A stretch of DNA of 64,000 nucleotides from a virus. Of the stretch, positions 1 to 62,416 are shown piece after piece. The position numbers and the translations under genes were made by a program. The notes beneath the pieces were generated by a model. That model worked only from the letters and a program-made list of their open reading frames with translations, made no database searches and was not told the DNA's origin. The stretch is from positions 1 to 64,000 of the IMG/VR virus record IMGVR_UViG_3300037797_000149; one strand, 5' to 3'. Numbering within the stretch: the first letter of the stretch is position 1; each line of letters starts with the position of its first letter.

Positions 1-2
1 GC

Positions 3-755: not shown

Positions 756-767
756 AGGAGATACGTC

Positions 768-914
768 ATGACCGATCCGGCGCTCCCCGCCGACATCGTC
801 TTCGACCCGGCGAACCCTCCCGATGAGTTGCTCAGCCTGCCCCCCGGATACACCTGGGAACTGAAGATCACGGCCGAGGCCGAGGTCGTTCATCCCGACG
901 GAACGAAGAACTGA
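768..914 (+). CDS. hypothetical small protein (48 aa)
   Basis: ATG 768 is preceded by AAGGAG (755-760) and the stop is TGA 912-914. It is below the ORF-track size cut-off and fills the gap between tail genes. Confidence 0.45.
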   Translation: MTDPALPADIVFDPANPPDELLSLPPGYTWELKITAEAEVVHPDGTKN

Positions 915-927
915 CGGAAGGACGACA

Positions 928-1329
928 ATGACTGTAGGACTGTCCGCGGTCAACCTGGCCAACGCCTGGCTCAGCACGCTGCGTGGCGGCGGGAACGGCG
1001 TGAGCTTCACCGCCCCCGCCTCCACCCACGTTAAACTTCACATTGCCGATCCCGGCGCGGCAGGCGCGACCGCTCCCTCGGCCGAGACGGACCGGATGGC
1101 GCTGGAATATGCCGCCCCCTCCGGCGCTTCCATGGCGTCCAGCAACGAGCCGTCCTGGGGACCGTGGGATCAAGGCACGGAGACGATCAGCGACATCAGC
1201 GTGTGGGACGACGCGACAGCGGGGAACTTCCTATACTCGGCGGAACTGACGACGCCCCGCGAAGTGCAGGACAACGACACGCTGAATTTGACGTCCGTCA
1301 CGTTCGCTCTCACGCCGGTCGCCGCATAA
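928..1329 (+). CDS. minor tail protein (hypothetical)
   Basis: 133-aa ORF with RBS GGAAGGA upstream of ATG 928. Assigned by its position among tail-fibre genes. Confidence 0.5.
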   Translation: MTVGLSAVNLANAWLSTLRGGGNGVSFTAPASTHVKLHIADPGAAGATAPSAETDRMALEYAAPSGASMASSNEPSWGPWDQGTETISDISVWDDATAGNFLYSAELTTPREVQDNDTLNLTSVTFALTPVAA

Positions 1330-1359
1330 ATTCGACAACACGATCGGCGGGATCCCACC

Positions 1360-4751: not shown

Positions 4752-4765
4752 GAAGAGGTAAACCC

Positions 4766-5104
4766 ATGGCTCTCACCATCCAAAGAGAGACAACCGAGTT
4801 TTCTTACATGGGCGTTTCCGGAGATCCCCCGTCGGTGGGCGCCGAAGTCGCGTTCCTGGACGCCGGCGTCCGCCCCACCGATGAATGGGAGGACGGAACC
4901 CTGGTTCTGAACGACTCTGATCCGCTGTGGGCAGATGCTGTGGCCTCTGGAGCCACCGGGGACTATTTCGTCGCCAGGCTCATCGGATCCTTCGGGGGAA
5001 ATGAGCTGGTGCTGGGGCCGGGCACCTATCAGCCGTGGCTCCGGCTTACCGATACAGTGGAGCGGCCTGTTCGCATCGGCCCGGAAACCCTGATTGTGCA
5101 GTGA
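4766..5104 (+). CDS. hypothetical protein
   Basis: 112-aa ORF with RBS GGAAGAGG upstream. Confidence 0.55.
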   Translation: MALTIQRETTEFSYMGVSGDPPSVGAEVAFLDAGVRPTDEWEDGTLVLNDSDPLWADAVASGATGDYFVARLIGSFGGNELVLGPGTYQPWLRLTDTVERPVRIGPETLIVQ

Positions 5105-5108
5105 TGAC

Positions 5109-5357
5109 ATGGCCAATGTCCCCGTAAAAGTCGACTACCCGCATCGCTCCGAAGACCTGCAGACCATCTATTTGGCGGTGACCGACCAGGCCCGCCCGGC
5201 ATCCAACATCTGGCGGCCGGCGTTCCGTGACATTGATCGCACCGGGAAGAAACCCCGGCGGATCGTGTTCGCGTACTTTCCGTCGACCGGCCGGATGATG
5301 AAAGTGTGGATCCGGGATTCGGCCGGGGACCGCCCGCTGGATTCGCGAATCGTGTAG
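5109..5357 (+). CDS. hypothetical protein
   Basis: ORF 5094..5357 trimmed to the first ATG (5109), which lies just after the upstream stop. Confidence 0.45.
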   Translation: MANVPVKVDYPHRSEDLQTIYLAVTDQARPASNIWRPAFRDIDRTGKKPRRIVFAYFPSTGRMMKVWIRDSAGDRPLDSRIV

Positions 5358-5386
5358 GAGAAACTAGGTCGGATAGTATCAAAGGT

Positions 5387-5608
5387 ATGTCCGGCCTTGG
5401 AGAACCTAGCGAGCGCGCATTGCCTGCTCCCGGCGACATCGTCACCTTTCGTGACGAGAAACGCGTCGTGGTGGACATCACCGGCGAGGGTGACGCTGTT
5501 CTGCGCTACACCGATGACGATCCCCGCCGCCAGGTGAATCCCGAAGGCGGGGACATGCATTTGGAAGCGGCCGAGGCGGCCTCTCTCACAGTGGCGGGGC
5601 GGTCCTGA
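5387..5608 (+). CDS. hypothetical protein (first gene of lysis cassette?)
   Basis: Internal ATG of ORF 5306..5608. TAGTAT (5374-5379) lies 7 nt upstream, so the mRNA may be leaderless. Confidence 0.45.
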   Translation: MSGLGEPSERALPAPGDIVTFRDEKRVVVDITGEGDAVLRYTDDDPRRQVNPEGGDMHLEAAEAASLTVAGRS

Positions 5609-6837
5609 TGACCACGATCAGCGCGGAACGGTCCAAGCTGGCCAAAGTGGGTCTGTCGTTGCGCCGCCGCGAACAGTGGGGGGCCAAGCGTTCCTACACT
5701 GATGCCCGTTCGGTGACCGAGCCCGCCACGCGGGTGTTCGTGCACATCACCGTCTCCAACCCGTCCAGCTACAACGGCAACGACGCCCACGCACGAGCTA
5801 TCGAGGCCATCGGGATCAGCCGCTTCCCCAAAACTGGGATCTCCTACAACCGGCTCATCATGCCCAATGGGGCCATTTACGAAGCGCAGCCGATCGGGCG
5901 CAGAGGCGCGCACACCGTCAACGATTTCCGCCGCTCGAGTTGCTCGACACCGGGCTGCCCGGACCGGGGATCGTCCCTGACCGCCCCGAGCTGGAACCTC
6001 AACATCAACGCTCGCTCGTACGCGATCTGCCAGAACGTTGGGCATCCGGTGAGCGACAAAATGGTCGACTCGATCGCACGTGCGATCGCCGCCGACAAAC
6101 TGGCCGGATTCGTGACCAGGTCCGCCTCGATCCACGGCCACCGCTGTGTTGCGTCGAAGTCGTGCCCCGGCGACAAGATGTGGGCTCGGATGGGCGAGAT
6201 TCAGAAGCGCGTCAACCATTATCTGAAAAACGGACTGAACGGAGACGGCGAAGTGGCCAGCAACGACACCATTATCAAGAACAACAGCGTCTGGTGGGAC
6301 TCGATCTTCCAGAAGAAGTCCAACCCCAAGCAGCGGATGCGGGCTTATAGCTACCTGACCTATATCCACGCTTACGTGCTCGATGTTCGTCGCGCTCTAA
6401 CCCAGACCCTCCCGTTCAACTCCTGGATGGAGAAGCGCTGGGGCAAGGCGAATTACAGCGTGCGCACGTACATTAGAACGGCCTACGGTCACGCCCGGGC
6501 CGGCAACGAGAATTCGGCCGAAGCACTCAAAGTTTTGGCAGCGCAGGCGAAACTGCTGTCCAAGCAGGCGGGGGAGATCGCCGCCGTCAAAGAACTGGTT
6601 CGGCAGCTCATCGCACGCGAACCCATGAACGAGCAACTCGTCGAAGCCGCGGCGCAACGAGGGGCATTGGCGGGGTCTGTGGAGGCGCTGGACGACTTGG
6701 GCCTGGACTTCCAGGTCACGATCACCCCCACCGAAGAGCCCACCGAGCTCGCCGAGTCTGCCGAACCCGAAGACGAGCCCGACGAACGGATCGAATCGGT
6801 CGAGCAGCTGTCCGATGAATCGGCTGTCGACGTCTAA
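5608..6837 (+). CDS. lysA: endolysin, N-acetylmuramoyl-L-alanine amidase (Amidase_2/PGRP fold) with uncharacterised C-terminal domain
   Basis: 409 aa. 'VFVHITVSN...GISYN...GAHTVN...IHGHRCV..KSCPGDKMW' fits the Zn-amidase_2 pattern. Membrane proteins follow. Confidence 0.8.
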   Translation: MTTISAERSKLAKVGLSLRRREQWGAKRSYTDARSVTEPATRVFVHITVSNPSSYNGNDAHARAIEAIGISRFPKTGISYNRLIMPNGAIYEAQPIGRRGAHTVNDFRRSSCSTPGCPDRGSSLTAPSWNLNINARSYAICQNVGHPVSDKMVDSIARAIAADKLAGFVTRSASIHGHRCVASKSCPGDKMWARMGEIQKRVNHYLKNGLNGDGEVASNDTIIKNNSVWWDSIFQKKSNPKQRMRAYSYLTYIHAYVLDVRRALTQTLPFNSWMEKRWGKANYSVRTYIRTAYGHARAGNENSAEALKVLAAQAKLLSKQAGEIAAVKELVRQLIAREPMNEQLVEAAAQRGALAGSVEALDDLGLDFQVTITPTEEPTELAESAEPEDEPDERIESVEQLSDESAVDV

Positions 6838-6868
6838 AACGCGAAACCACCCTTACTGAGGCGGTCTG

Positions 6869-7123
6869 ATGCCAGATGAGCCGACACTCGGTGAGGCCCT
6901 GCGACGATTGGACAAGATCGAACAGCGCATCGATAGCCGTCTGGTATCGCTGGGAACTTATAGTGCCGAACGTAAGCACGATCAGGACGCCGTTACAGAA
7001 GTGTCGCGGCGTACGACCAAGCTCGAGAATCGTATCGACTGGGCTTATCGGGCGGCGGTGACAGGGATCATCATGCCGGTAGTGGTCGGGGTCATGCTTT
7101 TCCTTCTGTTGAGGGCGCGATGA
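6869..7123 (+). CDS. membrane protein, holin-like (single C-terminal TM)
   Basis: 84 aa with a coiled N-terminus and a hydrophobic 'VTGIIMPVVVGVMLFLLL' followed by RAR. Directly downstream of the endolysin. Confidence 0.5.
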   Translation: MPDEPTLGEALRRLDKIEQRIDSRLVSLGTYSAERKHDQDAVTEVSRRTTKLENRIDWAYRAAVTGIIMPVVVGVMLFLLLRAR

Positions 7124-7845
7124 TGATGATGGCGAGGGTACGGCGGCAGCGTGGCAACATCGCGTTCTATGCGGCGGTGGTCGTGTTGTCGGTCATTGTC
7201 GCGCTCGTCATCTCCGAGGTCGTCAAGCTGTCCGATCGCGCCGATACCGCCGCCAGCGCTTCGGCTGAGCGGCAGCAGACCGTGGAAGACTTGTCAGCCG
7301 ACGTCGAGGCGCTGCGTCACCAGGTGTCCGGTTTGGGCGAGGAGCCGGTGGCGCCGGACCCGGACGAGCGCACCGACGATCTGACGCCGATCCCCGGACC
7401 TGAAGGCAAACAGGGTGAACGCGGGCCGCGGGGTTTTCCGCCGACACGGCAACAAGTGATGAATGTCGTGGTTCCCGTCGTCGCTCAGTACCTGATCGAG
7501 AATCCCCCGCCGGCCGGAGCGGATGGTGAAGATTCCACGATTCCGGGTCCTCAAGGCGAGCCCGGCGCGGACTCTACGGTTCCTGGACCGGCGGGTGCCG
7601 ACGGTGAGGATTCCACGATTCCGGGTCCTCAAGGCGAACCCGGCGAAGATTCCACGGTTCCAGGTCCGCCAGGCGATGACGGCGACGATGGAGATGATGG
7701 CCGTGGCATCGCGGCTGTGACCATCGAGGGCGACGGCCGGGAGTCGTGCGAATTGGTCGTACACTACGACGACGAAGATGAAACCGAAGATCGGATAGGA
7801 ATCAACCCACTCATTTGCATCCGCTCCAACGAAGGAGAATCATGA
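7120..7845 (+). CDS. membrane-anchored protein with collagen-like G-X-Y/acidic repeats
   Basis: 241 aa. N-terminal TM 'IAFYAAVVVLSVIVALVI'. Repeats 'GADGEDSTIPGPQGEPG(A/E)DSTVPGP' at about nt 7516-7700. Confidence 0.65.
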   Translation: MMMMARVRRQRGNIAFYAAVVVLSVIVALVISEVVKLSDRADTAASASAERQQTVEDLSADVEALRHQVSGLGEEPVAPDPDERTDDLTPIPGPEGKQGERGPRGFPPTRQQVMNVVVPVVAQYLIENPPPAGADGEDSTIPGPQGEPGADSTVPGPAGADGEDSTIPGPQGEPGEDSTVPGPPGDDGDDGDDGRGIAAVTIEGDGRESCELVVHYDDEDETEDRIGINPLICIRSNEGES

Positions 7846-29201: not shown

Positions 29202-29676
29202 GTCCCGCCCCAGCGAGATCGAGGCCGTCCGCTGGGACGGTTTCAATCTGGCAGAAGTCCAGATGTTCGGCGCCGACGTGTTCGTCGACCGCGGCGGAAC
29301 CCTGAAACTGAAGGCCGGCGCGGGTGGGTCCCAGGAGTACGTCCCGGTCCCATCCGGGCACTGGATCGCCCGGGACGCCAATGGGAAAGGCGACGACTAC
29401 TGGCCGATCCACCCGGACTATCTGGCGAGGAAGTACGCGGCGACCGGGGGTGGGGCCGCTTCGCGCGATTTGCAAGATCGTTACTACGAGTCGCTGCGTG
29501 GGCTGATAGTCCAAGTCAACCCTCCTGAACTGCGTGATCTCAGGCTGTGGCTGGGGCGCCGGATCGGGGCGCACATTGTGAACTCGAGATTGACCATCGA
29601 GGCTGTGGACAATGGCGGAATCCTCGTCCGGACGAAGCCTTACCTGAATAACGATCACCGTTCGGAGGAAGAATGA
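29185..29676 (+). CDS. hypothetical protein
   Basis: ORF 29179..29676; ATG 29185 lies 8 nt after GAGGAG. Confidence 0.5.
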   Translation: MVMRYKSRPSEIEAVRWDGFNLAEVQMFGADVFVDRGGTLKLKAGAGGSQEYVPVPSGHWIARDANGKGDDYWPIHPDYLARKYAATGGGAASRDLQDRYYESLRGLIVQVNPPELRDLRLWLGRRIGAHIVNSRLTIEAVDNGGILVRTKPYLNNDHRSEEE

Positions 29677-36364: not shown

Positions 36365-36416
36365 TAGGATTGGTTGGCAGCCCTACCGACGAACTCCCCA
36401 CAACATGGGGACGCCG

Positions 36417-36503
36417 CGGAAGATTGAGGAATCGAACCCCCGAGCTCTCACTCGTCGTTCCAGATTTCAAATCCGGTTGCCGGCCCAAGCGGCGAAATCT
36501 TCC
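36417..36503 (-). tRNA. tRNA-Ser (anticodon UGA), type II, slightly non-canonical
   Basis: Minus-strand fold: acceptor GGAAGAT/ATCTTCC; anticodon arm CCGGA-TTTGAAA-TCTGG; long variable arm CGAGT-GAGA-GCTCG; T-loop GGGGG-TTCGATT-CCTCA. There is an extra nt between acceptor and D stem, and one T-stem mismatch. Confidence 0.6.
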
Positions 36504-48473: not shown

Positions 48474-51260
48474 ATGACAGACGTCACACACCGCAATCCA
48501 TTCGCCGCCGCACCCGCCTATCGCGAAAAAGGCTGGGAAGGGACGGTCCCGGTGGCCTATGAGGGCAAGACGCTGCTGGTGAAATCGTTCACCGGCAGGC
48601 AGGGGAAATGGCCCAGCGACGAACAGGTGAGTAGAAGGATCGCGAAGGGGGAGGCGAACGGGGGAAAGCTTGAGAACATCGCGCTGCGGCTGCCCGCCGG
48701 GGTCGTCGGGGTGGACGTGGACGATTATGGAGGCAAGAACGGAGCCCGATCGCTGCGCGAGCTCGAAGCCGAATACGGGGAACTGCCGGAAACGGCCCGG
48801 TCGAGCGCCCGCGGATTCGACGGGGCCGGGGGAATCAGGCTGTTCCGGTTGCCCGCGGAGCACGCGGGGGCAGAACTGGCCGGCGCGCCCGCCGACGGGA
48901 TCGAGATCATCCAATTCCACCATCGCTACGCCATCGTCTGGCCGTCGGTGCACCCGAAGACCAAGACCCGGTATGAGTGGGAGAGCGGGGAAATCCCGGC
49001 GGTGGATGAGTTGGCCGAACTGCCTTCGGGGTGGGTTCTCGGGCTGAGCGCCACCAGCACTGGGGGGCGCAAGGAAGCCGGCGCCATCGAGGCCGGCGAG
49101 AAGGACGTTGCGGCGTATTTCGAGGCGATACGGGACGGCTCAGGGCAGATGTGCCGGGCTGTGGAGCGGATGGCGGACAGGCTGATCGAAGGGGCGTCAC
49201 GGGAACGCGGGAACGCCCACGACGCCGTCAACCGCGACATCCTCGCACTCATCGAGATGGGCTACCAGGGCCATCGCGGCGTGGCGTCGGCACTGGGGAA
49301 AGGCCGGCGGATATTCATCGAGACCGCCTCGGACCGGTCGACCAAGGCCGAACTGGCCGCCGAATGGCGGCGGATGGCCGCTGGGGCGCTAGCGATCAAG
49401 CAGGCGGAGAAGGACGGGCGGGGACGGGAGATGGAGCACGTCTGCGCCTGTGACCATCCTGGGAAACTGGGGCCGTTCGGTGAGGTCGTCGACGATGTGG
49501 TTCCCGGGGCTGCGGCGGCCGGCGACGGAGCGGGCAGCAACGGCGAGAGCGGCCCACCGGGGGCGCTGTACGACCTGGTGAGCGATGAAAGCGGTGATGA
49601 GGCGGCACGGGCCGCGCTGGTGGCCGCCGGAGTCACACGGGCCGAATTGGACGGTCTGGCGAAGGTGGACGCCAGCGAATGGGACCGGGGAGGGTTCACC
49701 GACCGGTGGATTGCGGAGAGTTTCGCCTACAACGTGTGCGCACCGCGGTTCTGCTGGGTGGCTGCGTTCGGGTGGCTGCGCTTCGACGGGAAGAAATGGT
49801 CGAGATGTTCGGACGAGCGCGTCATGGAGATGGCCGGCCGCTGGGCGCGGACCAAGCTCGCGGAGCGGGTCAAAGCCGGCGACCTGGATTCCTCGAAATT
49901 CAAGGGCTGGAAGACGATGCTCTCGGAGAAACGGCAGCGCGACGTGGTCAAGCTGGCCCGTGGGCTGACGGAAGTCGACGGGGCGCTGTTCGACGCCGAC
50001 CCGGACCTTTTGAACTGCCAGAACGGGGTTGTGGATCTGCGGACCGGGAGGATCATGGAGCACGCGCCGGACTTCTACATGCGCAAGATCACGAAATGTG
50101 CGTACGTGGAGGGGGCCGAACACGAGGACTGGAACAAAGCCTTGACCGCACTACCGCCCGACGTCGCGATGTGGATGAAAGCGCGTTACGGGCAGGCGAT
50201 CACGGGTCATATGACGCCAGACGATTTGCTGATCGTGCAGAACGGGACCGGGTCCAACGGGAAGAGTTCGGTGTTCGCCGGGATGCAGTCTCTCGGGGGT
50301 TATATCGGGTTGCTGTCGGACCGGGTCATCTTCGCCGACCCGAGAGATCATCCGACCGAACTCATGGATCTGCAAGGACTGCGGATGGCGCTGATCGAAG
50401 AGACGCTGGAAACGCGGCGACTCAACGTACAGCGACTGAAGAAACTAATCGGGACCACCCAAGTGACCGCCCGGCACATCCGGAAAGACTCGGTCACCTT
50501 CGATGCCACGCATTCAATTTTCCTGTCCACGAACTACCGTCCGGCCGTCGAGGAGACCGATGACGGCACATGGCGCCGGCTGGCGCTGGTGACGTTCCCG
50601 TACACGTTCATCAAGCCGGGCGAGACACTGAGCACCGGCCTCGGCGTGGGGATGGACGAAGCGGGGGACTACAGCGACTCCCGGGACGAATGGCGGCCGG
50701 GGGACGCGGGGCTGCGGGAACGACTACATCACGGTGACAGTGGCAGGCATGAGGCCGCTCTTGCCTGGATGGTGGCCGGCGCACGGCAGTGGTACGACGC
50801 CGACAAACAGATGCCTGAAATGCCGATCACGGTGGCCATGGACACCCGGGAATGGCGGGCGGAGTCAGACGTGGTGATGGCCTACTGCGACGAACGGCTG
50901 GAATTCGAGCCGGGGTACCACGTGGCCAGCGGTGATCTGTTGCTGGACTTGAACGGGTGGCTGGAGAACCACGGGCACAAACCCTGGTCGGCCAAATTGA
51001 TGGCAACCCGGTTCGAGAATAGTAGCGAGGTACGCAAAAACCGGGTACGGCAAGAGCGCGTAAGGAAAGATCAGAAGACCGGTGGAGGGGTCTTGTCACG
51101 GCCCGACATGGGCTTTGAATCCAAAACTCTGTACATCCACCTATCGGATCTCGGAAAACAGTACCGGGCGTGGTCAGGAGTGCGCTTCGCCAACGATACC
51201 GTCTCTACACCGGACAAGATTTCACCGGAAACACACGATGATGACCCAAACCCCTTCTGA
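48474..51260 (+). CDS. bifunctional DNA primase-polymerase / D5-type SF3 helicase
   Basis: 928 aa. N-terminal prim-pol ('VGVDVDDYGG', 'HHRYAIVWPSVHP'). Central D5_N-like region. Walker A 'GTGSNGKS'. Confidence 0.8.
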   Translation: MTDVTHRNPFAAAPAYREKGWEGTVPVAYEGKTLLVKSFTGRQGKWPSDEQVSRRIAKGEANGGKLENIALRLPAGVVGVDVDDYGGKNGARSLRELEAEYGELPETARSSARGFDGAGGIRLFRLPAEHAGAELAGAPADGIEIIQFHHRYAIVWPSVHPKTKTRYEWESGEIPAVDELAELPSGWVLGLSATSTGGRKEAGAIEAGEKDVAAYFEAIRDGSGQMCRAVERMADRLIEGASRERGNAHDAVNRDILALIEMGYQGHRGVASALGKGRRIFIETASDRSTKAELAAEWRRMAAGALAIKQAEKDGRGREMEHVCACDHPGKLGPFGEVVDDVVPGAAAAGDGAGSNGESGPPGALYDLVSDESGDEAARAALVAAGVTRAELDGLAKVDASEWDRGGFTDRWIAESFAYNVCAPRFCWVAAFGWLRFDGKKWSRCSDERVMEMAGRWARTKLAERVKAGDLDSSKFKGWKTMLSEKRQRDVVKLARGLTEVDGALFDADPDLLNCQNGVVDLRTGRIMEHAPDFYMRKITKCAYVEGAEHEDWNKALTALPPDVAMWMKARYGQAITGHMTPDDLLIVQNGTGSNGKSSVFAGMQSLGGYIGLLSDRVIFADPRDHPTELMDLQGLRMALIEETLETRRLNVQRLKKLIGTTQVTARHIRKDSVTFDATHSIFLSTNYRPAVEETDDGTWRRLALVTFPYTFIKPGETLSTGLGVGMDEAGDYSDSRDEWRPGDAGLRERLHHGDSGRHEAALAWMVAGARQWYDADKQMPEMPITVAMDTREWRAESDVVMAYCDERLEFEPGYHVASGDLLLDLNGWLENHGHKPWSAKLMATRFENSSEVRKNRVRQERVRKDQKTGGGVLSRPDMGFESKTLYIHLSDLGKQYRAWSGVRFANDTVSTPDKISPETHDDDPNPF

Positions 51261-55155: not shown

Positions 55156-55181
55156 CTTGACATAACTACTTGACATAACTA
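55156..55181. repeat. 13-bp tandem direct repeat x2 (cttgacataacta)
   Basis: Two exact adjacent copies, each containing TTGACA, 14 bp upstream of the -35 of promoter 55114..55142. Confidence 0.85.
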
Positions 55182-55253
55182 GTGCCGTGATAATGGTCTA
55201 GACCGGTTTTCTGGTGATTGGTGCCGTGGTCTAGACCGGTTTTCTGGTGATTG
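55182..55253. repeat. 33/39-bp tandem direct repeat x2, each with palindrome GGTCTAGACC
   Basis: gtgccgtg(ataatg)gtctagaccggttttctggtgattg occurs twice and is followed by a partial third 'gtgccg'. The region is non-coding. Confidence 0.85.
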
Positions 55254-55361
55254 GTGCCGATCCCATGTGTGATCGTTTCCGCCGTGCCGTAAAAATCTGC
55301 CGACTGAGAGCCGAGACGCGAAGGTAATTTTCCCACGGGGAAAAGCCGGCGCGCCGGTGAA

Positions 55362-57173: not shown

Positions 57174-57205
57174 TCCTCTCTGATGCGGGTATCCGGTACG
57201 TCCGG
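57174..57205 (-). promoter_or_regulatory. start-associated conserved element, copy 3
   Basis: The minus strand reads CCGGACGTACCGGATACCCGCATCAGAGAGGA. The core ends 27 nt before the ATG. Confidence 0.55.
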
Positions 57206-57278
57206 GCGAGGTGTCCCGTGATGAGACTCCCACAGTGGCCACCCTGTGTATCCCCGGTGAGTGGCCACCATGGCAACC

Positions 57279-57512
57279 TCACCTAAGGGTCACGTGGTCG
57301 GCGTACCCGTCGCCGTCAGGGTCCGTCAAGGTGAACGAACGGCCCTGCCCATTGCCCTGCCGCTCTGCATCCCACTGGCACGGGTAGCTGCTCTCGGCCT
57401 CGTCCGTCAGGCACGGGGGCAGCTCGGGGCGTGGCAGTGATTGGCCGAGCGGCACCATGGAAGCTGCCCACAGAGTGCTTCCTACGAGCACCGCGATAGC
57501 TGTACGTATCAT
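57279..57512 (-). CDS. secreted small protein
   Basis: 77 aa with signal-peptide-like 'MIRTAIAVLVGSTLWAASMVPLG'. Confidence 0.55.
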   Translation of the reverse strand: MIRTAIAVLVGSTLWAASMVPLGQSLPRPELPPCLTDEAESSYPCQWDAERQGNGQGRSFTLTDPDGDGYADHVTLR

Positions 57513-57535
57513 CGTGCTTCACCTCACATGCGCAG

Positions 57536-57548
57536 CCGGTACGTCCGG
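57536..57548 (-). promoter_or_regulatory. start-associated element, copy 4 (core only)
   Basis: CCGGACGTACCGG in the 5' UTR between promoter 57570..57598 and ATG 57512, 23 nt from the start. Confidence 0.45.
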
Positions 57549-57569
57549 AACTTCGCGCGTCATGACATG

Positions 57570-57598
57570 ACAGTATCAGACGTGCCACACCGTGTCTA
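57570..57598 (-). promoter_or_regulatory. promoter, conserved family (TAGACA-17-TGaTACTGT)
   Basis: The minus strand reads tagacacggtgtggcacgtcTGATACTGT. First promoter of the 57.5-51.5 kb leftward block. Confidence 0.6.
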
Positions 57599-57806
57599 CA
57601 CGCATGGCGCAGTGATCGAGCGCGGTTCTGAGCTCGTTGCGCGACACGCGTTGCCCACGTCGCCACCCGACCCCCTTCCGCCGCTCTCGCAACCCCCCCG
57701 GTACCCGTCGGGAAATGAAGCCGGCCGGCCGGCAGGGTGGCGGAGCGTAGGTCGCCGACAGAAGTCGTGTGCTGCAAGATCAAGACCGTTTTCCGGAATG
57801 GGAAGG

Positions 57807-57984
57807 CGAAAAATCCACCACGCGTGAAAGCGAAAAATCCTCGAGGCTAGCGACGAAAAATCCACCACGCGTGAAAGCGAAAAATCCTCGAGGCTAGCGA
57901 CGAAAAATCCACCACGCGTGAAAGCGAAAAATCCTCGAAGCTAGCGACGAAAAATCCACCACGCGTGGAGGCGAAAAATCTCCC
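57807..57984. repeat. 47-bp tandem array (3.7 units) = 8 phased copies of (G)CGAAAAATC
   Basis: 'cgaaaaatc' starts at 57807, 57831, 57854, 57878, 57901, 57925, 57948 and 57972 (spacing 24/23 bp). Each unit carries the palindromes ACGCGT, CTCGAG and GCTAGC. Non-coding divergent region upstream of the packaging genes. Confidence 0.9.
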
Positions 57985-58068
57985 ATGCGCGTGAACCGTG
58001 TGACGTCAGGTGCGTGTGTGACCCCTTCTCGCTTACCCTATGTGCAATGCGTTCGAAGAGGTGAGGAT

Positions 58069-58659
58069 ATGGATGAGATGAAGTTTTCGCCACAACTGGT
58101 GCGGTCGGGCAACAGGAGTCTGGGTTTCGACGGATGCCTTCTGGCGTCGGTGTCGTCTAAACGCCCTCTGGCGGCCCGGTGGACGGATCTGGAGTTGTAC
58201 CGGATCGGATTGGACGGCCTGCCCTCACATGACCCGTCGTACGTGTTCTGCCGCACTGGACTGTCCCGGGTCTACCACACCGCGGATTGCCCCCAGGTTC
58301 CGCCTCGCCTGCCGTTCGGGCATGAGATGGCCGAGCAGGTGGAGTTCTCCGAACTCGTCGCTTGCCACGTGTGCGCCCCTGTGAGACCTCCCGAGCCGGG
58401 TGGGTCGGGGGTTTTCGCCACCGATTTCGCCACGTCGCATCGTTTCGAGGTGACCCGGCGCCGGGCCTGGTTGTTCGCCGGTGCTCCCGAGTTGCTGGAT
58501 TTCCTGTCCACGTCCCGCTCGCAGGACGATCGGAAGGTGCCTATGGGTGCCGCGGGCTTGCCCAGGTTGTCTTCGGAGTTGCTGTTCACCGCGGCCCGTC
58601 TCGATCCCGGCCTGGCCGGCGCTCTCTCACCTTCGACTGGGGTGACCGGCCGTGTCTGA
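58069..58659 (+). CDS. hypothetical protein (first gene of packaging/structural block)
   Basis: ORF 57985..58659 trimmed to ATG 58069 (GAGGTGAGGA upstream). Confidence 0.5.
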   Translation: MDEMKFSPQLVRSGNRSLGFDGCLLASVSSKRPLAARWTDLELYRIGLDGLPSHDPSYVFCRTGLSRVYHTADCPQVPPRLPFGHEMAEQVEFSELVACHVCAPVRPPEPGGSGVFATDFATSHRFEVTRRRAWLFAGAPELLDFLSTSRSQDDRKVPMGAAGLPRLSSELLFTAARLDPGLAGALSPSTGVTGRV

Positions 58660-59629
58660 TGATATTTTCGAGACCGCGACGTCTTCCCGGCTGCCGTTCC
58701 CGCACTGGCTGGCGCTGCACCATGATCCGTCCAGCCGGTTCTGGGAAATCGCCCATCTGGTGCTGTCCGGGGGTCCGGAGTCGATGTGGGCGGGCCGTTT
58801 CGATTTGACGCCTGAGATCATCGCCGGTGACGTGAAACTCCTGTACGCCTCTGGGAATCCGGCGGTGACTTCCGATCACATGGAGCAGTGCGCCGCTGCG
58901 ATGGCCGAATATCACGACAACGCCCCCACGGTGGCCCAGATGGTGCGGATGCGCGCCGGGGCAGAGAAGGATTTCGGCGCTGACGAATCCCCCCAGGGAG
59001 CGGCCGGCCGGGTGCGCTCGGCCATGCGTGAATCGTTCACATCCCGGGGTTTGACGGTGAGCAGCGGCATCGACGAGCCGGTCTCGGAAGCGGACGGCTC
59101 GGATGTGGCCGAGTTCACCGGGCCTTCCCTGGTGTTGCGCACCAAGTGCAGGCACGTGTCGGCCAAGACCGGTGTCATGTGCCGGAGCATCGTGCCGGCC
59201 GGATCGGATTTGTGCACTCGGCATGGTGGCCGGATCTACACCGTGGAAGAACTGGCCAACATTCACCGGGCCACCCGGGAGAAGATCGTGGCGGCCAGTG
59301 AGGCGGCGGTGGACACTCTGGTGGACCTGCTGAACTCCCCCAACGACATGGTGCGGCTGCGAGCGTCGGAGGCGGTGCTGAACCGGGCGGGCCTGCCCGA
59401 GGGTGTGGAGATCACGGTGGTGTCATCGACGTCCGGCGGGTCTACCCCGTCCCAGTTGGTGGCCGAGAAGCTGGAGCGCCTCGCCGAGGGCACGCGGGCG
59501 ATCCGGTCTCCCGCTTCGGAATTCGATGATGACTCGTCCCCCGCTTCACAGCCCGGCCGGTCATCAGATTCTGATTCTGATCCTGATTCGGATGTGGTGG
59601 ACGCCGAAGTGGTCGAGGACGGGAGGTAG
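58652..59629 (+). CDS. terS: putative terminase small subunit
   Basis: Lies immediately upstream of TerL. 'LLNSPNDMVRLRASEAVLNRAG' resembles a motif seen in actinophage small terminases. Acidic Ser/Asp tail. The call rests mostly on position. Confidence 0.45.
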   Translation: MSDDIFETATSSRLPFPHWLALHHDPSSRFWEIAHLVLSGGPESMWAGRFDLTPEIIAGDVKLLYASGNPAVTSDHMEQCAAAMAEYHDNAPTVAQMVRMRAGAEKDFGADESPQGAAGRVRSAMRESFTSRGLTVSSGIDEPVSEADGSDVAEFTGPSLVLRTKCRHVSAKTGVMCRSIVPAGSDLCTRHGGRIYTVEELANIHRATREKIVAASEAAVDTLVDLLNSPNDMVRLRASEAVLNRAGLPEGVEITVVSSTSGGSTPSQLVAEKLERLAEGTRAIRSPASEFDDDSSPASQPGRSSDSDSDPDSDVVDAEVVEDGR

Positions 59630-59634
59630 CGCAC

Positions 59635-62343
59635 GTGGCTGGGACACTGGTCCTCCCCAAGCTGGTCGCCCCGGCCGATGCCGGGCGGTGGTTCCCGGCG
59701 AATGCGGATCTGGCACTGGCCGACCGGGTGGCCATGCTGGACCCGGACACCCGGGTCAAGACGTTGACCACGGGTGACGGGAAGCCGATCGACCCGGACA
59801 CGCTGCTTTACGATTTCAGATTCTGGGGGCGCCCGAGCCAGCTTTGCGTCTACGATTCCAGCGCGCACATCACCGCCATGATCTCCGGAAGGGGTGGAGG
59901 CAAGACAAGATCATTGTCCGAGGTGGCGCACCATCTGGCCGAGATGATGCCGGGCAGCCGAGGGGCGCTGATCGCCCGCACCGCCGCCGACGTGCGTGAC
60001 ACTTTGATCAGGGGTGACAGTGGGATCATCGAGACCGCCCATCCCGACGCCCGGCCCAGGTATGTGGCCAACAACCGCTCTCTGACCTGGCCTAACGGGA
60101 CGACGGCGACGTCGTTTTCGGCGCAGCAGCCTGATGGTCTGAGGGGTCCACAGTTTAATTGGGCACTGTGCATCGCCGCAGGCCAGAAGGTGAGAGTGGA
60201 ACGAGGGTTCGTACCAATCGAGGATGTGACCAGTGACGACAAGGTACTGGTGCGCGACGGGCGGTACGTCCCGCTTCGGCAAGGTGCGCGACTGACTCGC
60301 CGCCGGACTGAGGTTATCAGGATCGCTACTGCGACTCGCACACTGGACCTGACGCCGGACCATAGAGTCGCTACGCCTGAAGGTTGGGTCGAGGCTCGTG
60401 AACTCCGGCCCGGTGATACTATCCTGACATGTCAAATTCCGACCCAATACCCAGTGCCGCACCAGGCTGGTTCACCTTCGATGACCAGCGATGGTACCTC
60501 AGGAAAAAGTTCAATCACTACGCCAATCGAAAAGGTGAACTCCTTCATCGAGAAGTCTGGAAATCGGTCAATGGGCCGATTCCAGAAGGCATGGTCATTC
60601 ATCACAAAGACCATGATCCGACGAACAACCGGCTCGGCAATCTGGAACTCCGAACCGATGACGATCACAGACGGCATCACACGTCAGTACGAGAAGACGA
60701 AGCTTGGGTCGAGCAGTACAAGGCTGAAACCAGATCGGCCAACGCCAGGAAGCTCTGGGATGCGCGTCGAGAAGATCCGGATGAGCGCATCTGCCAGCAC
60801 TGCGGGGAAGTTTATACATCGGTTGGCATGGTCTCGCTTTTCTGTTCTGCTCGATGCCGGAATCTGGCTGGACCTGCGACACGTCGCGGTGAGTATGCCA
60901 AGACGGTCGCATCGGAATGCCTTGGTTGCGGCGAAAAGTTCGCTTCGACGAGCACGCGAGCCAAATACTGCTCCAATCGATGCAAACGGCGTCTCCAGAA
61001 CCGGCAACGATCTGAACTTCGGAAGTCTGAAGACAATCGCATCTGCCCGGTCTGCGGCTCCGGCAATTTCGGCAATCGCCGGTCCGATGCCGTCTTCTGT
61101 TCAACCCATTGTCAAGCACGAGACGCTCGTATCCGTCGATTCCGCGCCAAGGCAGGACGTGTATGACCTGACCACGTCCGATCCAGATTTTCCGGAGTTC
61201 TTCGCCAGCGGCATACTCGTCCACAATTGTGACGAGGTAGCGGCCTGGCCGACCCGCCCGCCATCTGGCTCGATCGCCAATGCCTGGGACAACGTGAAGC
61301 TGGCCACCCGGCTGGGGAACAACCCGCAGATCTTCGTGGCGACCACGCCGCGCCGGGTGCCGGTGGTGATCGAGCTGCTGAACGCCACCCACGCCGATCC
61401 GTCCAAGTGCCTGGTGGTGCGGGGGTCGACGATGGCGAACCGGCATCTGGCGCAGGTGTACCGCGACACCGTGGTGGCCATGTACGCCGGGACGACGCTG
61501 GCCCAGCAGGAGCTAGAGGGCGAACTGCTGGGGGACATCGACGGCGCGCTGCTGACGATGGACAAGATTTCCAGGGTGAGCGATCCGGACGAGATCGCCC
61601 GGTTGCAGGATATGAACTATCTGCGCAGCAAGTATCCGGTGCGCATCGTGGGGGTGGACCCGTCGACCAGCGACAAGCCGCGAGACGAGTGCGGGATCGT
61701 GGTGGTGGCCGCGACGGCGGAGCGCAATCCGCACAAGCGCAAATGTGTGGTGCTGGCGGATGAGTCGCTGCACGGGTCGCCGGGTGTGTGGGCGGCCAGG
61801 GTGGCGGAGGTGGCCCGCGAATACGAGGCGTTCGTGGTGGTGGAGGACAACCAGGGCGGCGAGATGGTGCGCATGGTGATCCGGGCGCACGATGAGCATG
61901 TGCCGGTGGTGCTGGCGCGCAGCGACGAGTCGAAGGTGGTGCGGGCCGAGCCGGTCGTTTTGGCTTTTGAGAAGTCGAATGTGCGTCATCTGGATTTTTT
62001 CGGAGAACTCGAAACTCAGTGGACGTCCTGGGTGCCCGACGAGAGCCTGTACTCCCCCGATCGCCTGGACGCGTCGGTGATCGCGATTTCGGCGTCACTG
62101 GTGGCGCAGCCCAGCGGAATGGGCGGGCGGATCCGGGTGGGCAGCCGGCAGCGCGGAGCGGCTGGCAAGCGGAAGGTCCGCGGGCTGAAGCAGCACGAGA
62201 AGTCGATTGCGTCCACGCCGGCGGCCAACGCTTTCGCCGCGGCGCCCAGGATCAGGTACGTGAAGCAGTCGCCGGCCGAAAAACGACGTGCCCGAAAATC
62301 CGCTTCGAGGCGGCTGGACGGATTCGGTTCGCCGTATCCGTGA
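59635..62343 (+). CDS. terL: terminase large subunit, interrupted by an intein (60169-61227)
   Basis: Walker A 'GRGGGKT'. Exteins rejoin as '..FNWAL/CDEVAAWP' (Walker B). The nuclease half contains 'IVGVDPSTS..ECGIVVV'. GTG start 8 nt after GGGAGG. Confidence 0.85.
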   Translation: MAGTLVLPKLVAPADAGRWFPANADLALADRVAMLDPDTRVKTLTTGDGKPIDPDTLLYDFRFWGRPSQLCVYDSSAHITAMISGRGGGKTRSLSEVAHHLAEMMPGSRGALIARTAADVRDTLIRGDSGIIETAHPDARPRYVANNRSLTWPNGTTATSFSAQQPDGLRGPQFNWALCIAAGQKVRVERGFVPIEDVTSDDKVLVRDGRYVPLRQGARLTRRRTEVIRIATATRTLDLTPDHRVATPEGWVEARELRPGDTILTCQIPTQYPVPHQAGSPSMTSDGTSGKSSITTPIEKVNSFIEKSGNRSMGRFQKAWSFITKTMIRRTTGSAIWNSEPMTITDGITRQYEKTKLGSSSTRLKPDRPTPGSSGMRVEKIRMSASASTAGKFIHRLAWSRFSVLLDAGIWLDLRHVAVSMPRRSHRNALVAAKSSLRRAREPNTAPIDANGVSRTGNDLNFGSLKTIASARSAAPAISAIAGPMPSSVQPIVKHETLVSVDSAPRQDVYDLTTSDPDFPEFFASGILVHNCDEVAAWPTRPPSGSIANAWDNVKLATRLGNNPQIFVATTPRRVPVVIELLNATHADPSKCLVVRGSTMANRHLAQVYRDTVVAMYAGTTLAQQELEGELLGDIDGALLTMDKISRVSDPDEIARLQDMNYLRSKYPVRIVGVDPSTSDKPRDECGIVVVAATAERNPHKRKCVVLADESLHGSPGVWAARVAEVAREYEAFVVVEDNQGGEMVRMVIRAHDEHVPVVLARSDESKVVRAEPVVLAFEKSNVRHLDFFGELETQWTSWVPDESLYSPDRLDASVIAISASLVAQPSGMGGRIRVGSRQRGAAGKRKVRGLKQHEKSIASTPAANAFAAAPRIRYVKQSPAEKRRARKSASRRLDGFGSPYP
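60169..61227 (+). mobile_element. intein (Hint domain split by a ~230-codon linker)
   Basis: Cys1 (TGC 60169-71), block B 'LTPDH', blocks F/G 'VYDLTT...FFASGILVHN' (His-Asn 61222-27) and +1 Cys (TGT 61228-30). Confidence 0.8.
60429..61166 (+). CDS. HNH (HNH_3-type) endonuclease with three zinc-ribbon repeats, nested out of frame inside the TerL intein
   Basis: 245-aa ORF in the -1 frame relative to TerL. 'HREVW...GPIPEGMVIHHKDHDPTNNRLGNLEL' plus 3x CxxCG..(F/Y)CSxxC. An in-frame TGA lies 4 codons upstream of the ATG. Confidence 0.8.
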   Translation: MSNSDPIPSAAPGWFTFDDQRWYLRKKFNHYANRKGELLHREVWKSVNGPIPEGMVIHHKDHDPTNNRLGNLELRTDDDHRRHHTSVREDEAWVEQYKAETRSANARKLWDARREDPDERICQHCGEVYTSVGMVSLFCSARCRNLAGPATRRGEYAKTVASECLGCGEKFASTSTRAKYCSNRCKRRLQNRQRSELRKSEDNRICPVCGSGNFGNRRSDAVFCSTHCQARDARIRRFRAKAGRV

Positions 62344-62350
62344 TCCCCGC

Positions 62351-62392
62351 CCACTTTCACCCCCACCTCGTCCACTTTCACCCCCACCTCGT
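62351..62392. repeat. 21-bp tandem direct repeat x2 (ccactttcacccccacctcgt)
   Basis: Two exact adjacent copies starting 8 nt after the TerL stop, just upstream of promoter 62417..62445. Confidence 0.85.
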
Positions 62393-62416
62393 CCTATCCC
62401 TGTCCTTTCGCACATT

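What the first reader, a model, noticed from the sequence alone, without database searches (positions are those of the whole stretch)
57807..57984. 47-bp tandem array with eight phased GCGAAAAATC boxes in the 470-bp gap upstream of the packaging genes
There are 3.7 near-identical 47-bp units. Each contains two A-tract boxes (cgaaaaatc) at alternating 24/23-bp spacing. Each also carries three different 6-bp palindromes: ACGCGT, CTCGAG and GCTAGC. The array lies between the leftward promoter at 57570-57598 and the first rightward packaging-block gene (58069). That position is the seam between the 'right arm' and the terminase module, where a linear phage genome would normally begin or end. Candidate roles are a terminase small-subunit recognition array (cosB/pac-like), a replication origin with iterons, or a binding array for an architectural protein. 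The ORFs crossing it (57441..57827, 57596..57868) look like artefacts of the repeat.
Basis: partly seen in the sequence, partly recalled or inferred. Interest (0 to 1): 0.68.

Follow-up and report, generated by a model that had tools for sequence, protein, structure and literature searches.

The report
Repeat array beside phage packaging genes
A real 47-bp tandem repeat upstream of a phage's DNA-packaging genes is an amplified set of a short DNA site that related phages keep at the same spot; it is most likely the landing pad where the small terminase starts genome packaging, a known kind of element in a new, unstudied phage group.

Summary
Window 57807-57980 is a 47-bp x 3.7 tandem array (97% matches). 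It carries eight CGAAAAATC boxes at alternating 24/23-bp spacing, and these are the only eight copies in the 64 kb (0.42 expected).

The new point is comparative. Four other lineages, with flanking proteins only 34-47% identical, keep the same layout in the same gap: a ~95-bp conserved non-coding module (C-run, GAAATG, GGCCGGCC, then TCGTGYG..GCAAGATC) followed by lineage-specific repeats of a bipartite site, CGYGYG-N2-5-GC[AG]A[AG]A*ATC, always in direct orientation. The window has five such sites, four of them inside the array.

The gene at 58652-59629 is a small terminase: its C-domain profile hits solved TerS structures at E = 8e-9, and it sits directly upstream of TerL in about eight lineages. 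The closest TerL relatives are fixed-end phages with terminal repeats, and in two of three such groups the repeat boundary lies just upstream of the TerS homologue.

The gap has no AT-rich unwinding element, no initiator, partition or regulator gene nearby, and no conserved RNA structure.

Best reading (about 0.45): a TerS recognition array of the pac/cosB type, possibly at a terminal-repeat boundary. Binding and genome ends remain untested. It is a new member of a known kind, of moderate interest.

The parts
57513..58068 (.). Divergent non-coding gap between the leftward small-gene block and the rightward operon that contains the terminase genes
   Evidence: JGI gene calls on the identical contig L022 and the ORF list. 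The same divergent gap exists in relatives L024/L025 and L030.
57693..57790 (+). Conserved non-coding module: C-run 57693-57699, GAAATG 57712-57717, GCCGGCCGGCCGGC 57720-57733, core site TCGTGTGCTGCAAGATC 57765-57781
   Evidence: It aligns across four lineages whose flanking proteins are about 40-47% identical (A1/A3). The distance from C-run to core is 70-73 bp in all four. There is no conserved RNA structure and no Rfam match.
57763..57806 (+). Degenerate 'unit 0', ancestral-type repeat unit homologous to the 45-bp unit of relative L024
   Evidence: Pairwise alignment with L024 9175-9216; it contains the first bipartite site.
57807..57980 (+). 47-bp x 3.7 tandem array with eight CGAAAAATC boxes; four of them are preceded by CACGCGTG and so form full bipartite sites (57821-57839, 57868-57886, 57915-57933, 57962-57980)
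   Evidence: TRF, the repeat finder, box uniqueness. The bipartite pattern gives 6 hits in the window, 5 of them in the gap, against 0.235 expected.
57978..57991 (+). Conserved right-edge motif ATCTCCCATGCGCG that closes the array
   Evidence: The same motif, ATCTCCCACGCGCG, closes the 33-bp array of L030 at 722. L031 reads CGATCCTCCCCGCGCGTG at about 303-320.
58069..58659 (+). Conserved 196-aa protein of unknown function, always upstream of TerS; candidate packaging accessory or DNA binder
   Evidence: Alignment A5 covers five lineages at 34-47% identity, with invariant SRxYH, LPxGH and CxxC residues. Homologues occur in Gordonia, Microbacterium and Arthrobacter phages. There are no Pfam, NCBIfam or PDB hits, and the AF2 model failed (pLDDT 33).
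58652..59629 (+). Small terminase (TerS), 325 aa: novel helical N-domain (about 11-130), Cys3His zinc ribbon (C166, C177, C188, H191), and a TerS-type helical core
   Evidence: The C-domain profile (A4) hits PDB 7joq at E = 7.7e-9 and 6w7t at E = 9.6e-7, the NV1/PaP3 TerS nonamers. PHROG 2538 'terminase small subunit' matches 10 of 26 family members. The gene is directly upstream of TerL in the window, L024/25, L030, L031, L032, L039, L040 and L044/45. In the AF2 model the N-domain has pLDDT 83-94, with no PDB fold match.
59635..62343 (+). Large terminase (TerL) interrupted by an intein
   Evidence: Pfam Terminase_6N/6C plus Hint_2/Intein_splicing. It is 46-49% identical to the TerL of Gordonia phages GodonK, Phendrix, Forza, Sixama and GMA2.
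57279..57512 (-). First leftward gene: small protein with a signal-peptide-like N-terminus, not a DNA-binding regulator
   Evidence: Translations of the window, L024 and L030 genes all begin with a hydrophobic or lipobox-like segment. The only family hits are PHROGs of unknown function.

Best explanation
The array is the amplified part of a packaging-recognition region for the phage terminase.

A bipartite site, CGYGYG-N2-5-GC[AG]A[AG]A*ATC, is conserved in this phage clade immediately upstream of the operon 196-aa gene, TerS, TerL. In this phage the site has been multiplied by tandem duplication. There are now five full sites plus four half-sites, all pointing toward the terminase genes.

Inferred mechanism: the oligomeric small terminase, alone or with the 196-aa partner, binds these repeated sites through its zinc-ribbon or N-terminal domains. 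The sites advance by about 86 degrees of helical phase each, so roughly four boxes (about 95-100 bp) make one superhelical turn, which would let the DNA wrap around the TerS ring. The bound TerS then positions TerL to cut nearby. The cut site is probably in or next to the adjacent conserved module, and it may define the left boundary of a direct terminal repeat.

As in SPP1, occupancy of this region may also throttle transcription of the terminase operon.

What is shown: the repeat, its specificity, its conservation and its position, the identity of TerS, and the terminal-repeat ends of the nearest isolated relatives. What is inferred: binding, wrapping, cleavage, and the location of the genome end.
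For: 1. Specificity. All 8 boxes in the window are in the array. The bipartite site is found at 5 places in the gap, with 0.235 expected per 64 kb. All 3 copies in the 21-kb locus L024 are in its gap.

2. Conservation of position and orientation despite sequence turnover. The module spacing is 70-73 bp in four lineages. Repeats follow the core site in each lineage: 47 bp x 3.7 in the window, 45 bp x 3 in L024/25, 33 bp x 2.8 in L030, and dispersed second copies in L031 and L038. Independent amplification of the same site argues that multiplicity is selected.

3. The site lies at the head of the operon that encodes TerS and TerL, the usual place for cosB and pac sites.

4. TerL's nearest relatives have fixed ends with terminal repeats that I verified: GodonK 7.58 kb, Sixama 1.70 kb, Talia1610 19.9 kb. 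In GodonK the boundary lies in an equivalent divergent gap 1.06 kb upstream of the TerS homologue. In Talia1610 it lies 65 bp upstream, flanked by short direct GRTAAC boxes.

5. Literature precedent. The SPP1 pac site has three sets of direct repeats spanning the TerS promoter and gene start. Runs of 5-7 A/T pairs interspersed with GC are proposed to favour ~100-bp helicoidal DNA that wraps a TerS ring (PMC4737164).

6. Alternatives lack their required parts.
Against: - No binding data, and no read-level mapping of termini; every functional step is inferred.
- The more distant relative L039 (TerS 34% identical, N-domain residues still invariant) keeps the operon but has only a 169-bp gap, with no array and no core motif. 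The element is therefore not obligatory for this TerS family.
- In Sixama and GMA2 the TerS and 196-aa homologues lie in a replication/nucleotide-metabolism module, far from both TerL and the genome ends.
- GodonK's boundary gap has no tandem array and no shared motif.
- Spacing differs between lineages (47, 45, 33, about 130 bp), which argues against a rigid protein-DNA architecture.
- Near-identity of the units (100/100/96%) shows the amplification is recent, so the extra copies might be neutral.
- Assemblies read straight through the gap (window, L022, L024, L025, L030), so there is no assembly evidence for an end there.
Confidence: 0.45

Rival explanations
1. Transcriptional switch region. 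The repeated sites are operators or activator sites for an unidentified phage or host regulator. That regulator would control the divergent promoters of the leftward small-gene block and the rightward terminase operon, analogous to the p4/p6 nucleoprotein complex between the early and late promoters of phi29.
For: The array lies in a divergent intergenic gap. The sites are direct repeats of a conserved motif. The fifth lineage, L038, has a perfect palindrome containing TTGACA between its boxes and the first gene. In SPP1, TerS binding at pac also represses its own promoter (PMC4737164), so regulation and packaging need not be exclusive.
Against: No sigma-70-like promoter was found in 57200-58300. 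None of the 14 flanking genes tested shows an HTH, RHH or other regulator domain, and the first leftward genes encode signal-peptide proteins. Operators for dimeric regulators are usually inverted repeats; here the conserved element is a direct bipartite site.
Confidence: 0.2
2. Largely neutral tandem duplication. Only the single ancestral site (57765-57781) and its module are functional. The 47-bp array is a recent slippage or unequal-recombination product that happens to include a copy of the site and is tolerated in a long intergenic gap.
For: The units are 96-100% identical, so the amplification is recent. Unit length and sequence differ in every lineage. L031 and L039 do without a tandem array. 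The only other assembly that spans the array has the same copy number, so there is no evidence either way on polymorphism.
Against: At least three lineages independently carry tandem repeats at exactly this position, and every lineage with the module has at least 2 copies of the site in direct orientation. L024's units have diverged to 90% and 64% yet keep the bipartite site, which indicates long-term retention under constraint.
Confidence: 0.17
3. Iteron-type replication origin. The repeated sites bind a replication initiator that opens adjacent DNA.
For: There are direct repeats of 16-19 bp with A-tracts, as in lambda-type and plasmid iterons. Unrelated IMG/VR contigs carry CGAAAAATC-box arrays followed by AT-rich tracts that look like classical origins. 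In Sixama and GMA2 the homologues of the two downstream genes sit among replication genes.
Against: There is no AT-rich unwinding element: the longest A/T-only run in the gap is 6 nt, the lowest 40-bp GC is 45%, and the array is 51% GC. The nearest replication gene (Prim-Pol/D5 primase-helicase, 48474-51260) is 6.5 kb away. The flanking genes are TerS/TerL and secreted proteins. The ATCCACC segment matches a DnaA box (TTATCCACA) at only 6 of 9 positions (read directly from the sequence).
Confidence: 0.08
4. Centromere-like partition site (parC/parS-type array) of a plasmid-prophage.
For: Tandem direct repeats upstream of an operon resemble parC-type centromeres.
Against: No ParA, ParM, TubZ, ParB or ParR-like domain was found in any neighbouring gene. 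No relative was found in 185,579 bacterial and archaeal genomes, so there is no sign of a prophage or plasmid lifestyle. The downstream genes are terminase genes.
Confidence: 0.03

Closest known systems
Bacillus phage SPP1/SF6 pac site (pacL-pacC-pacR with boxA/boxB/boxC direct repeats)
   Same: Both have sets of direct repeats at the promoter and start of the TerS gene. Both have A/T runs interspersed with GC that are proposed to give helicoidal DNA able to wrap the TerS ring. Repeat sequences are only moderately conserved between related phages, yet function is retained (PMC4737164).
   Different: SPP1 is a headful packager with an HTH-type TerS. Here the TerS has a zinc ribbon and a novel N-domain, and the nearest TerL relatives are fixed-end terminal-repeat phages. 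The repeats here form a near-perfect tandem array outside the coding region, with an extra conserved gene between the site and TerS. There is no sequence similarity.
Phage lambda cos (cosN followed by cosB with R3-I1-R2-R1 sites, then the Nu1 TerS gene)
   Same: The order is the same: a GC-rich symmetric element, then repeated TerS-binding sites, then the TerS gene, then TerL, with all elements polar toward the terminase genes (established lambda knowledge; the cos subsite description is in PMC4669245, listed).
   Different: Lambda's R sites are three 16-bp sites in mixed orientation with an IHF bend. Here there are 5 full and 4 half sites, all direct. No cohesive-end evidence exists, and TerL belongs to a different clade (Terminase_6N/6C).
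Terminal-repeat boundaries of Gordonia phage GodonK and Arthrobacter phage Talia1610 (isolated relatives with determined ends)
   Same: They share homologous TerS-family and 196-aa genes and a related TerL. The physical left end lies just upstream of the TerS-family gene: in a divergent gap in GodonK, and flanked by short direct boxes in Talia1610.
   Different: They have no tandem array, no shared motif, and an AT-rich gap in GodonK. In those phages TerS is 20-140 kb from TerL. Protein identity is only 23-34%.
Iteron origins (lambda ori, plasmid iterons)
   Same: Phased direct repeats of about 17-20 bp with A-tracts.
   Different: No AT-rich unwinding element and no adjacent or enclosing initiator gene.

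Membership tests
Terminase recognition site (pac / cosB type) | Lies next to the terminase genes, at the head of the TerS-TerL operon | tested here: met
   The array ends 88 bp before the first operon gene and 672 bp before TerS. TerS and TerL are identified. The same placement is seen in L024/25, L030, L031 and L038.
Terminase recognition site (pac / cosB type) | Multiple copies of a specific sequence element, concentrated at this locus | tested here: met
   8 of 8 boxes and 5 of 6 bipartite sites in the window lie in the gap, against 0.42 and 0.235 expected.
Terminase recognition site (pac / cosB type) | Bound sequence-specifically or conformation-specifically by the small terminase | not testable with these tools
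   Needs EMSA or footprinting. The AF2 model shows only a confident but unclassifiable N-domain and a zinc ribbon.
Terminase recognition site (pac / cosB type) | A terminase cut site or physical genome end adjacent to the repeats | not testable with these tools
   No reads are available. The indirect evidence is that relatives' terminal-repeat boundaries lie upstream of the TerS homologue in 2 of 3 groups. Contigs L023 and L037 break at or in the array, but a repeat explains that.
Terminase recognition site (pac / cosB type) | Intrinsic bend or wrapping-prone DNA | tested here: inconclusive
   A5 tracts every 23.5 bp give about 86 degrees of phase advance per box, which predicts a superhelical rather than planar path with about 4.2 boxes per turn. 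L024's 44.5-bp spacing gives the same remainder, but L030's 33 bp does not. This is arithmetic only; no curvature model or gel data.
Iteron replication origin | Adjacent AT-rich DNA unwinding element | tested here: not met
   The longest A/T-only run in the gap is 6 nt, and the 40-bp GC never falls below 45%.
Iteron replication origin | Located within or beside the initiator or replication genes | tested here: not met
   The nearest replication gene is 6.5 kb away. The neighbours are terminase genes and small secreted proteins.
Partition centromere (parC/parS array) | Adjacent partition NTPase and centromere-binding adaptor genes | tested here: not met
   No such Pfam or PHROG domains in the flanking genes.
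Structured RNA / riboregulator | Conserved secondary structure with covariation, or a match to a known family | tested here: not met
   The RNAalifold consensus is -5.0 and -3.2 kcal/mol with negligible covariation, and there is no Rfam hit in the gap. The single-sequence z-score of about -2.9 is explained by the repeated palindromes.
Small terminase family (for the 325-aa protein) | Sequence-profile similarity to solved TerS oligomerisation cores, and a position directly upstream of TerL | tested here: met
   7joq E = 7.7e-9 and 6w7t E = 9.6e-7. PHROG 2538 matches 10 of 26 members. Synteny with TerL holds in about 8 lineages, including the distant P0008.

The most novel reading that the evidence does not exclude
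The ~95-bp conserved module plus the expandable array may be the end-defining signal of a previously uncharacterised three-part packaging system. That system would consist of a zinc-ribbon TerS with a novel N-domain, a conserved 196-aa partner, and TerL, in large actinobacterial phages with terminal repeats. The number of TerS landing sites would evolve rapidly by tandem amplification and concerted evolution. It would give a defined, sequence-readable recognition signal for fixed-end terminal-repeat packaging, which is poorly understood outside T7-like phages.
Probability: 0.2. Interest if true: 0.6.

Novelty: new member of a known kind. Interest (0 to 1): 0.4.

Why it matters
Recognition sites for terminases are known in detail for only a handful of model phages. 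For large actinobacterial phages with terminal repeats, nothing is known about how the ends are chosen.

Here the sequence alone gives three things. There is a precise candidate site: a bipartite motif, its orientation and its copy number. There is the likely binder, encoded next to it. And there is a small set of natural variants with 2-5 copies and spacings of 33-130 bp that would make the question directly testable by EMSA and read-end mapping.

If the reading is right, it also shows packaging signals evolving by tandem amplification, as iterons do. If it is wrong, the element is still a conserved, protein-targeted non-coding region in an otherwise unannotated phage lineage. Either way it is an incremental addition to a known class, not a new principle.

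Tried and rejected
- **Megablast and blastn of the region against 50,697 phage records:** no match.
- **IMG/VR scan for three phased CGAAAAATC boxes:** 20 hits, all unrelated arrays in other elements, several with a classical iteron plus AT-rich layout. Useful only as a contrast.
- **IMG/VR scan for the core motif:** over 119 single chance hits; only the already known 127.5-kb contig has two copies.
- **Relatives by protein:** few exist. The metagenome scan gave 4 short loci, the GTDB genome scan none, and IMG/VR only the known contig plus a fragment that starts at TerS.
- **AF2 of the 196-aa protein:** failed (pLDDT 33). Profile searches of it against PDB, Pfam and NCBIfam were empty.
- **Foldseek of the TerS model:** no PDB match for the N-domain. 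In BFVD only the Gordonia phage homologues matched.
- **RNA readings:** rejected.
- **Promoter scan:** found nothing. A weak terminator-like hairpin on the minus strand at 57720-57733 has no gene to terminate.
- **CRISPR-like reading:** rejected by inspection, because the 'spacers' between boxes are themselves repeated and no cas genes are present.
- **Synthetic polylinker (MluI/XhoI/NheI/KpnI/SacI sites):** considered and rejected. The locus recurs in independent environmental assemblies, and its GAGCTC and GGTACC elements are conserved in diverged relatives.
- **Contig ends as evidence for a physical terminus:** rejected. L023 and L037 break at or in the perfect repeat, as assemblers do, while five contigs read through.

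Full report
**1. The observation**

The region 57807-57980 is a genuine tandem array. Tandem Repeats Finder gives period 47, 3.7 copies, 97% matches and no indels. In register, units 1 and 2 are identical and unit 3 is 96% identical.

The 9-mer CGAAAAATC occurs eight times in the 64-kb window. All eight are on the + strand and all are inside the array, at 57807, 57831, 57854, 57878, 57901, 57925, 57948 and 57972. That gives alternating 24/23-bp spacing. Chance expectation is 0.42, and 0 of 100 shuffles reach 8. Five boxes read GCGAAAAATC and three read ACGAAAAATC.

The three palindromes are present. Two of them are really 8-bp palindromes (CACGCGTG, CCTCGAGG). This load is unusual for a 47-mer of that composition (p = 0.009 for three 6-mers, p = 0.003 for two 8-mers).

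The non-coding gap runs 57513-58068. An identical contig from another sample (L022) carries the same 3.7 copies, and JGI called no gene across it. Two further assemblies of the same phage break at the array's edge (L023) or inside it (L037). That is what assemblers do at perfect repeats, so I do not read it as a physical end.

**2. The genomic setting**

The window is part of a ~61% GC tailed-phage genome with no close DNA relative among 50,697 phage records. Its layout:

| Coordinates | Content |
|---|---|
| 1-7000 | Tail-fibre and lysin genes |
| ~14-51 kb | Replication genes: exonuclease, helicases, PolA, Prim-Pol/D5 primase at 48474-51260 |
| 51.5-57.5 kb | Block of small leftward genes |
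| 57513-58068 | The gap |
| 58069 onward | Rightward operon: 196-aa gene, 325-aa gene, TerL with an intein (59635-62343), 347-aa gene |

TerL is 46-49% identical to the TerL of the large Gordonia phages GodonK, Phendrix, Forza, Sixama and GMA2. It is 38-42% identical to Arthrobacter and Microbacterium jumbo-like phages.

**3. The 325-aa protein is the small terminase**

- A profile of its family finds 874 relatives among 1.8 billion representatives. Most share only the C-terminal ~150 residues, a Cys3His zinc ribbon plus a helical hairpin, and many are stand-alone proteins of 130-250 aa.
- A profile of that domain hits the solved small terminases 7joq (E = 7.7e-9) and 6w7t (E = 9.6e-7). These are the nonameric NV1/PaP3 TerS of Niazi et al. 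2020 (PMC7672466).
- Ten of 26 members hit PHROG 2538, 'terminase small subunit'.
- The gene is immediately upstream of TerL, often overlapping it, in about eight lineages, including a distant one that shares only the C-domain.
- AlphaFold gives a confident all-helical N-domain (residues 11-100, pLDDT 83-94). It has no fold match in the PDB.

The 196-aa protein is conserved at 34-47% identity in five lineages, with invariant His and Cys residues. It always sits upstream of TerS but has no detectable family, and its model failed.

**4. The key result: the array is the amplified part of a conserved element**

Relatives with TerS only 40-44% identical (L024/L025 on a 127.5-kb contig, L030, L031), and a fifth lineage found through the 196-aa protein (L038), have the same gap in front of the same operon.

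Alignment shows a ~95-bp conserved non-coding module: a C-run, GAAATG, GGCCGGCC, and then TCGTGYG(N1-2)KGCAAGATC. The distance from C-run to core is 70-73 bp in all four lineages that include it.

Directly after the core, each lineage has its own repeats:

| Lineage | Repeats after the core site |
|---|---|
| Window | 47 bp x 3.7 |
| L024/25 | 45 bp x 3; the core site itself is the unit; copies 100/90/64% |
| L030 | 33 bp x 2.8 |
| L031 | Second core copy 130 bp downstream |
| L038 | Second and third boxes about 150-175 bp downstream |

Window 57763-57806 is a degenerate 'unit 0' homologous to L024's unit. The right edge of the array, ATCTCCCATGCGCG at 57978, is shared with L030.

A single bipartite pattern, CGYGYG-N2-5-GC[AG]A[AG]A*ATC, describes the sites. 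The window has six matches, five of them in the gap (57766, 57821, 57868, 57915, 57962), against 0.235 expected. L024 has three, all in its gap.

So CACGCGTG + GCGAAAAATC is this lineage's version of the conserved site, and the other four boxes are half-sites. All copies in all lineages point the same way, toward the terminase genes.

**5. What it is not**

- *RNA element.* The module has no conserved secondary structure (-5.0 and -3.2 kcal/mol, essentially no covariation) and no Rfam match. The array's single-sequence z-score of about -2.9 on both strands is what tandem palindromes produce.
- *Replication origin.* The gap has no AT-rich unwinding element. The longest A/T-only run is 6 nt, the minimum 40-bp GC is 45%, and the unit GC is 51%. 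The nearest replication gene is 6.5 kb away.
- *Regulator- or partition-bound array.* No flanking gene has a regulator or partition domain. The first leftward genes encode small signal-peptide proteins.
- *Recognisable promoter region.* No sigma-70-type promoter was detected.
- *Prophage or plasmid element.* No relative exists in 185,579 prokaryotic genomes.

**6. Packaging mode of the relatives**

I verified terminal repeats in the isolated relatives:

| Phage | Terminal repeat | Boundary relative to the TerS homologue |
|---|---|---|
| GodonK | 7.58 kb, boundary at 114983 | In a 637-bp divergent gap (leftward genes, gap, rightward genes), 1.06 kb upstream, with a homing GIY-YIG gene in between |
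| Talia1610 | 19,886 bp | 65 bp upstream, flanked by short direct GRTAAC boxes |
| Sixama | 1,702 bp | Not near it; the TerS and 196-aa homologues sit in the replication/nucleotide-metabolism module |

Fixed-end, terminal-repeat packaging is therefore the best guess for this phage, and a terminus near the TerS gene is plausible but not a rule. GodonK's gap has no array and no shared motif. The more distant metagenomic relative L039 keeps the operon with only a 169-bp gap and no motif. The module and array are therefore clade-specific.

**7. Mechanism proposed**

The best-supported reading is a terminase recognition region of the pac/cosB kind. Repeated, polar, specific sites at the head of the TerS-TerL operon would be bound by the oligomeric TerS, possibly with the 196-aa partner. 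The bound complex would position TerL to cut nearby.

The published SPP1/SF6 model is the nearest analogue. Its pac site has three sets of direct repeats across the TerS promoter and gene start. It has A/T runs of 5-7 bp between GC steps that favour ~100-bp helicoidal DNA wrapping a TerS ring, and TerS occupancy also represses transcription (PMC4737164).

Here the boxes recur every 23.5 bp, about 86 degrees of helical phase at 10.5 bp per turn. About 4.2 boxes (roughly 99 bp) therefore make one superhelical turn. L024's 44.5-bp spacing leaves the same remainder, but L030's 33 bp does not. This is arithmetic, not a test.

Binding, wrapping, cleavage and the position of the end are all inferred. 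I put this reading at about 0.45. The rivals are:

| Reading | Confidence |
|---|---|
| Purely transcriptional switch | about 0.20 |
| Neutral recent amplification around one functional site | about 0.17 |
| Replication origin | about 0.08 |
| Partition centromere | about 0.03 |

**8. Verdict**

The element is a new member of a known kind: repeat-based terminase recognition or regulatory sites. It lies in an unstudied phage lineage with an unusual TerS. Interest is moderate (0.4). What it offers is a well-defined, testable candidate site with natural variants, and it does not amount to a new principle.

Noticed in passing
window 59635-62343: TerL (902 aa) is interrupted by an intein (Hint_2 / Intein_splicing, about residues 179-531). 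Relatives L024, L032 and L039 have intein-free TerL of 508-543 aa.
   Followed up: partly
window 62351-62394: Perfect 21-bp x 2.1 tandem repeat (CCACTTTCACCCCCACCTCGT) in the 110-bp gap between the TerL stop and the 347-aa gene.
   Followed up: no
window 55156-55259: A 13-bp x 2 repeat, CTTGACATAACTA (contains TTGACA), is followed by a perfect 33-bp x 2 repeat in an intergenic gap of the leftward gene block. It may be a promoter or operator. The same repeats are present in L022.
   Followed up: no
window 29462-29479: A lone extra copy of the bipartite site (CGCGCGATTTGCAAGATC, + strand) lies inside a coding region. It may be chance or a secondary site.
   Followed up: partly
window 58069-58659 and 58652-59629; Sixama MN484601 99735-105369; GMA2 KR063281 71367-76553: Homologues of the 196-aa protein and of TerS travel together. 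In Sixama and GMA2 they are about 4 kb apart on the same strand, within the nucleotide-metabolism/replication module and far from TerL. This suggests a functional pair whose role may not be limited to packaging.
   Followed up: partly
window 7510-7701: Nested 78/39/9-bp repeats lie in the tail-fibre region, probably a repetitive (collagen-like) coding segment.
   Followed up: no
window 36416-36503 (-): A single tRNA-Ser (anticodon TGA) gene.
   Followed up: no
L038 215-242: A perfect palindrome, TATTGACAATA-tgtccg-TATTGTCAATA, containing TTGACA lies between the repeated boxes and the 196-aa homologue in the fifth lineage. It is a candidate operator overlapping a promoter.
   Followed up: no
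L031 22-70: A separate 18-bp x 2.7 tandem array (GCGTGTGAGACGTTGCGA) lies about 40 bp upstream of the conserved module, at the very start of that contig.
   Followed up: no
L002-L021 (IMG/VR): Unrelated viral contigs carry 3-5 phased CGAAAAATC-containing repeats followed by AT-rich tracts (for example TATCCCGAAAAATCGGGAGA x 3, then TATAAGTAATAATATAA). These look like classical iteron origins. A giant-virus MAG carries many GGCGAAAAATCTTCGATTTTTCCT tandem arrays.
   Followed up: no
window 57720-57733 (- strand): The conserved GCCGGCCGGCCGGC hairpin followed by TTCATTTCC scores as a weak terminator-like site on the minus strand, although no leftward gene lies upstream of it.
   Followed up: partly
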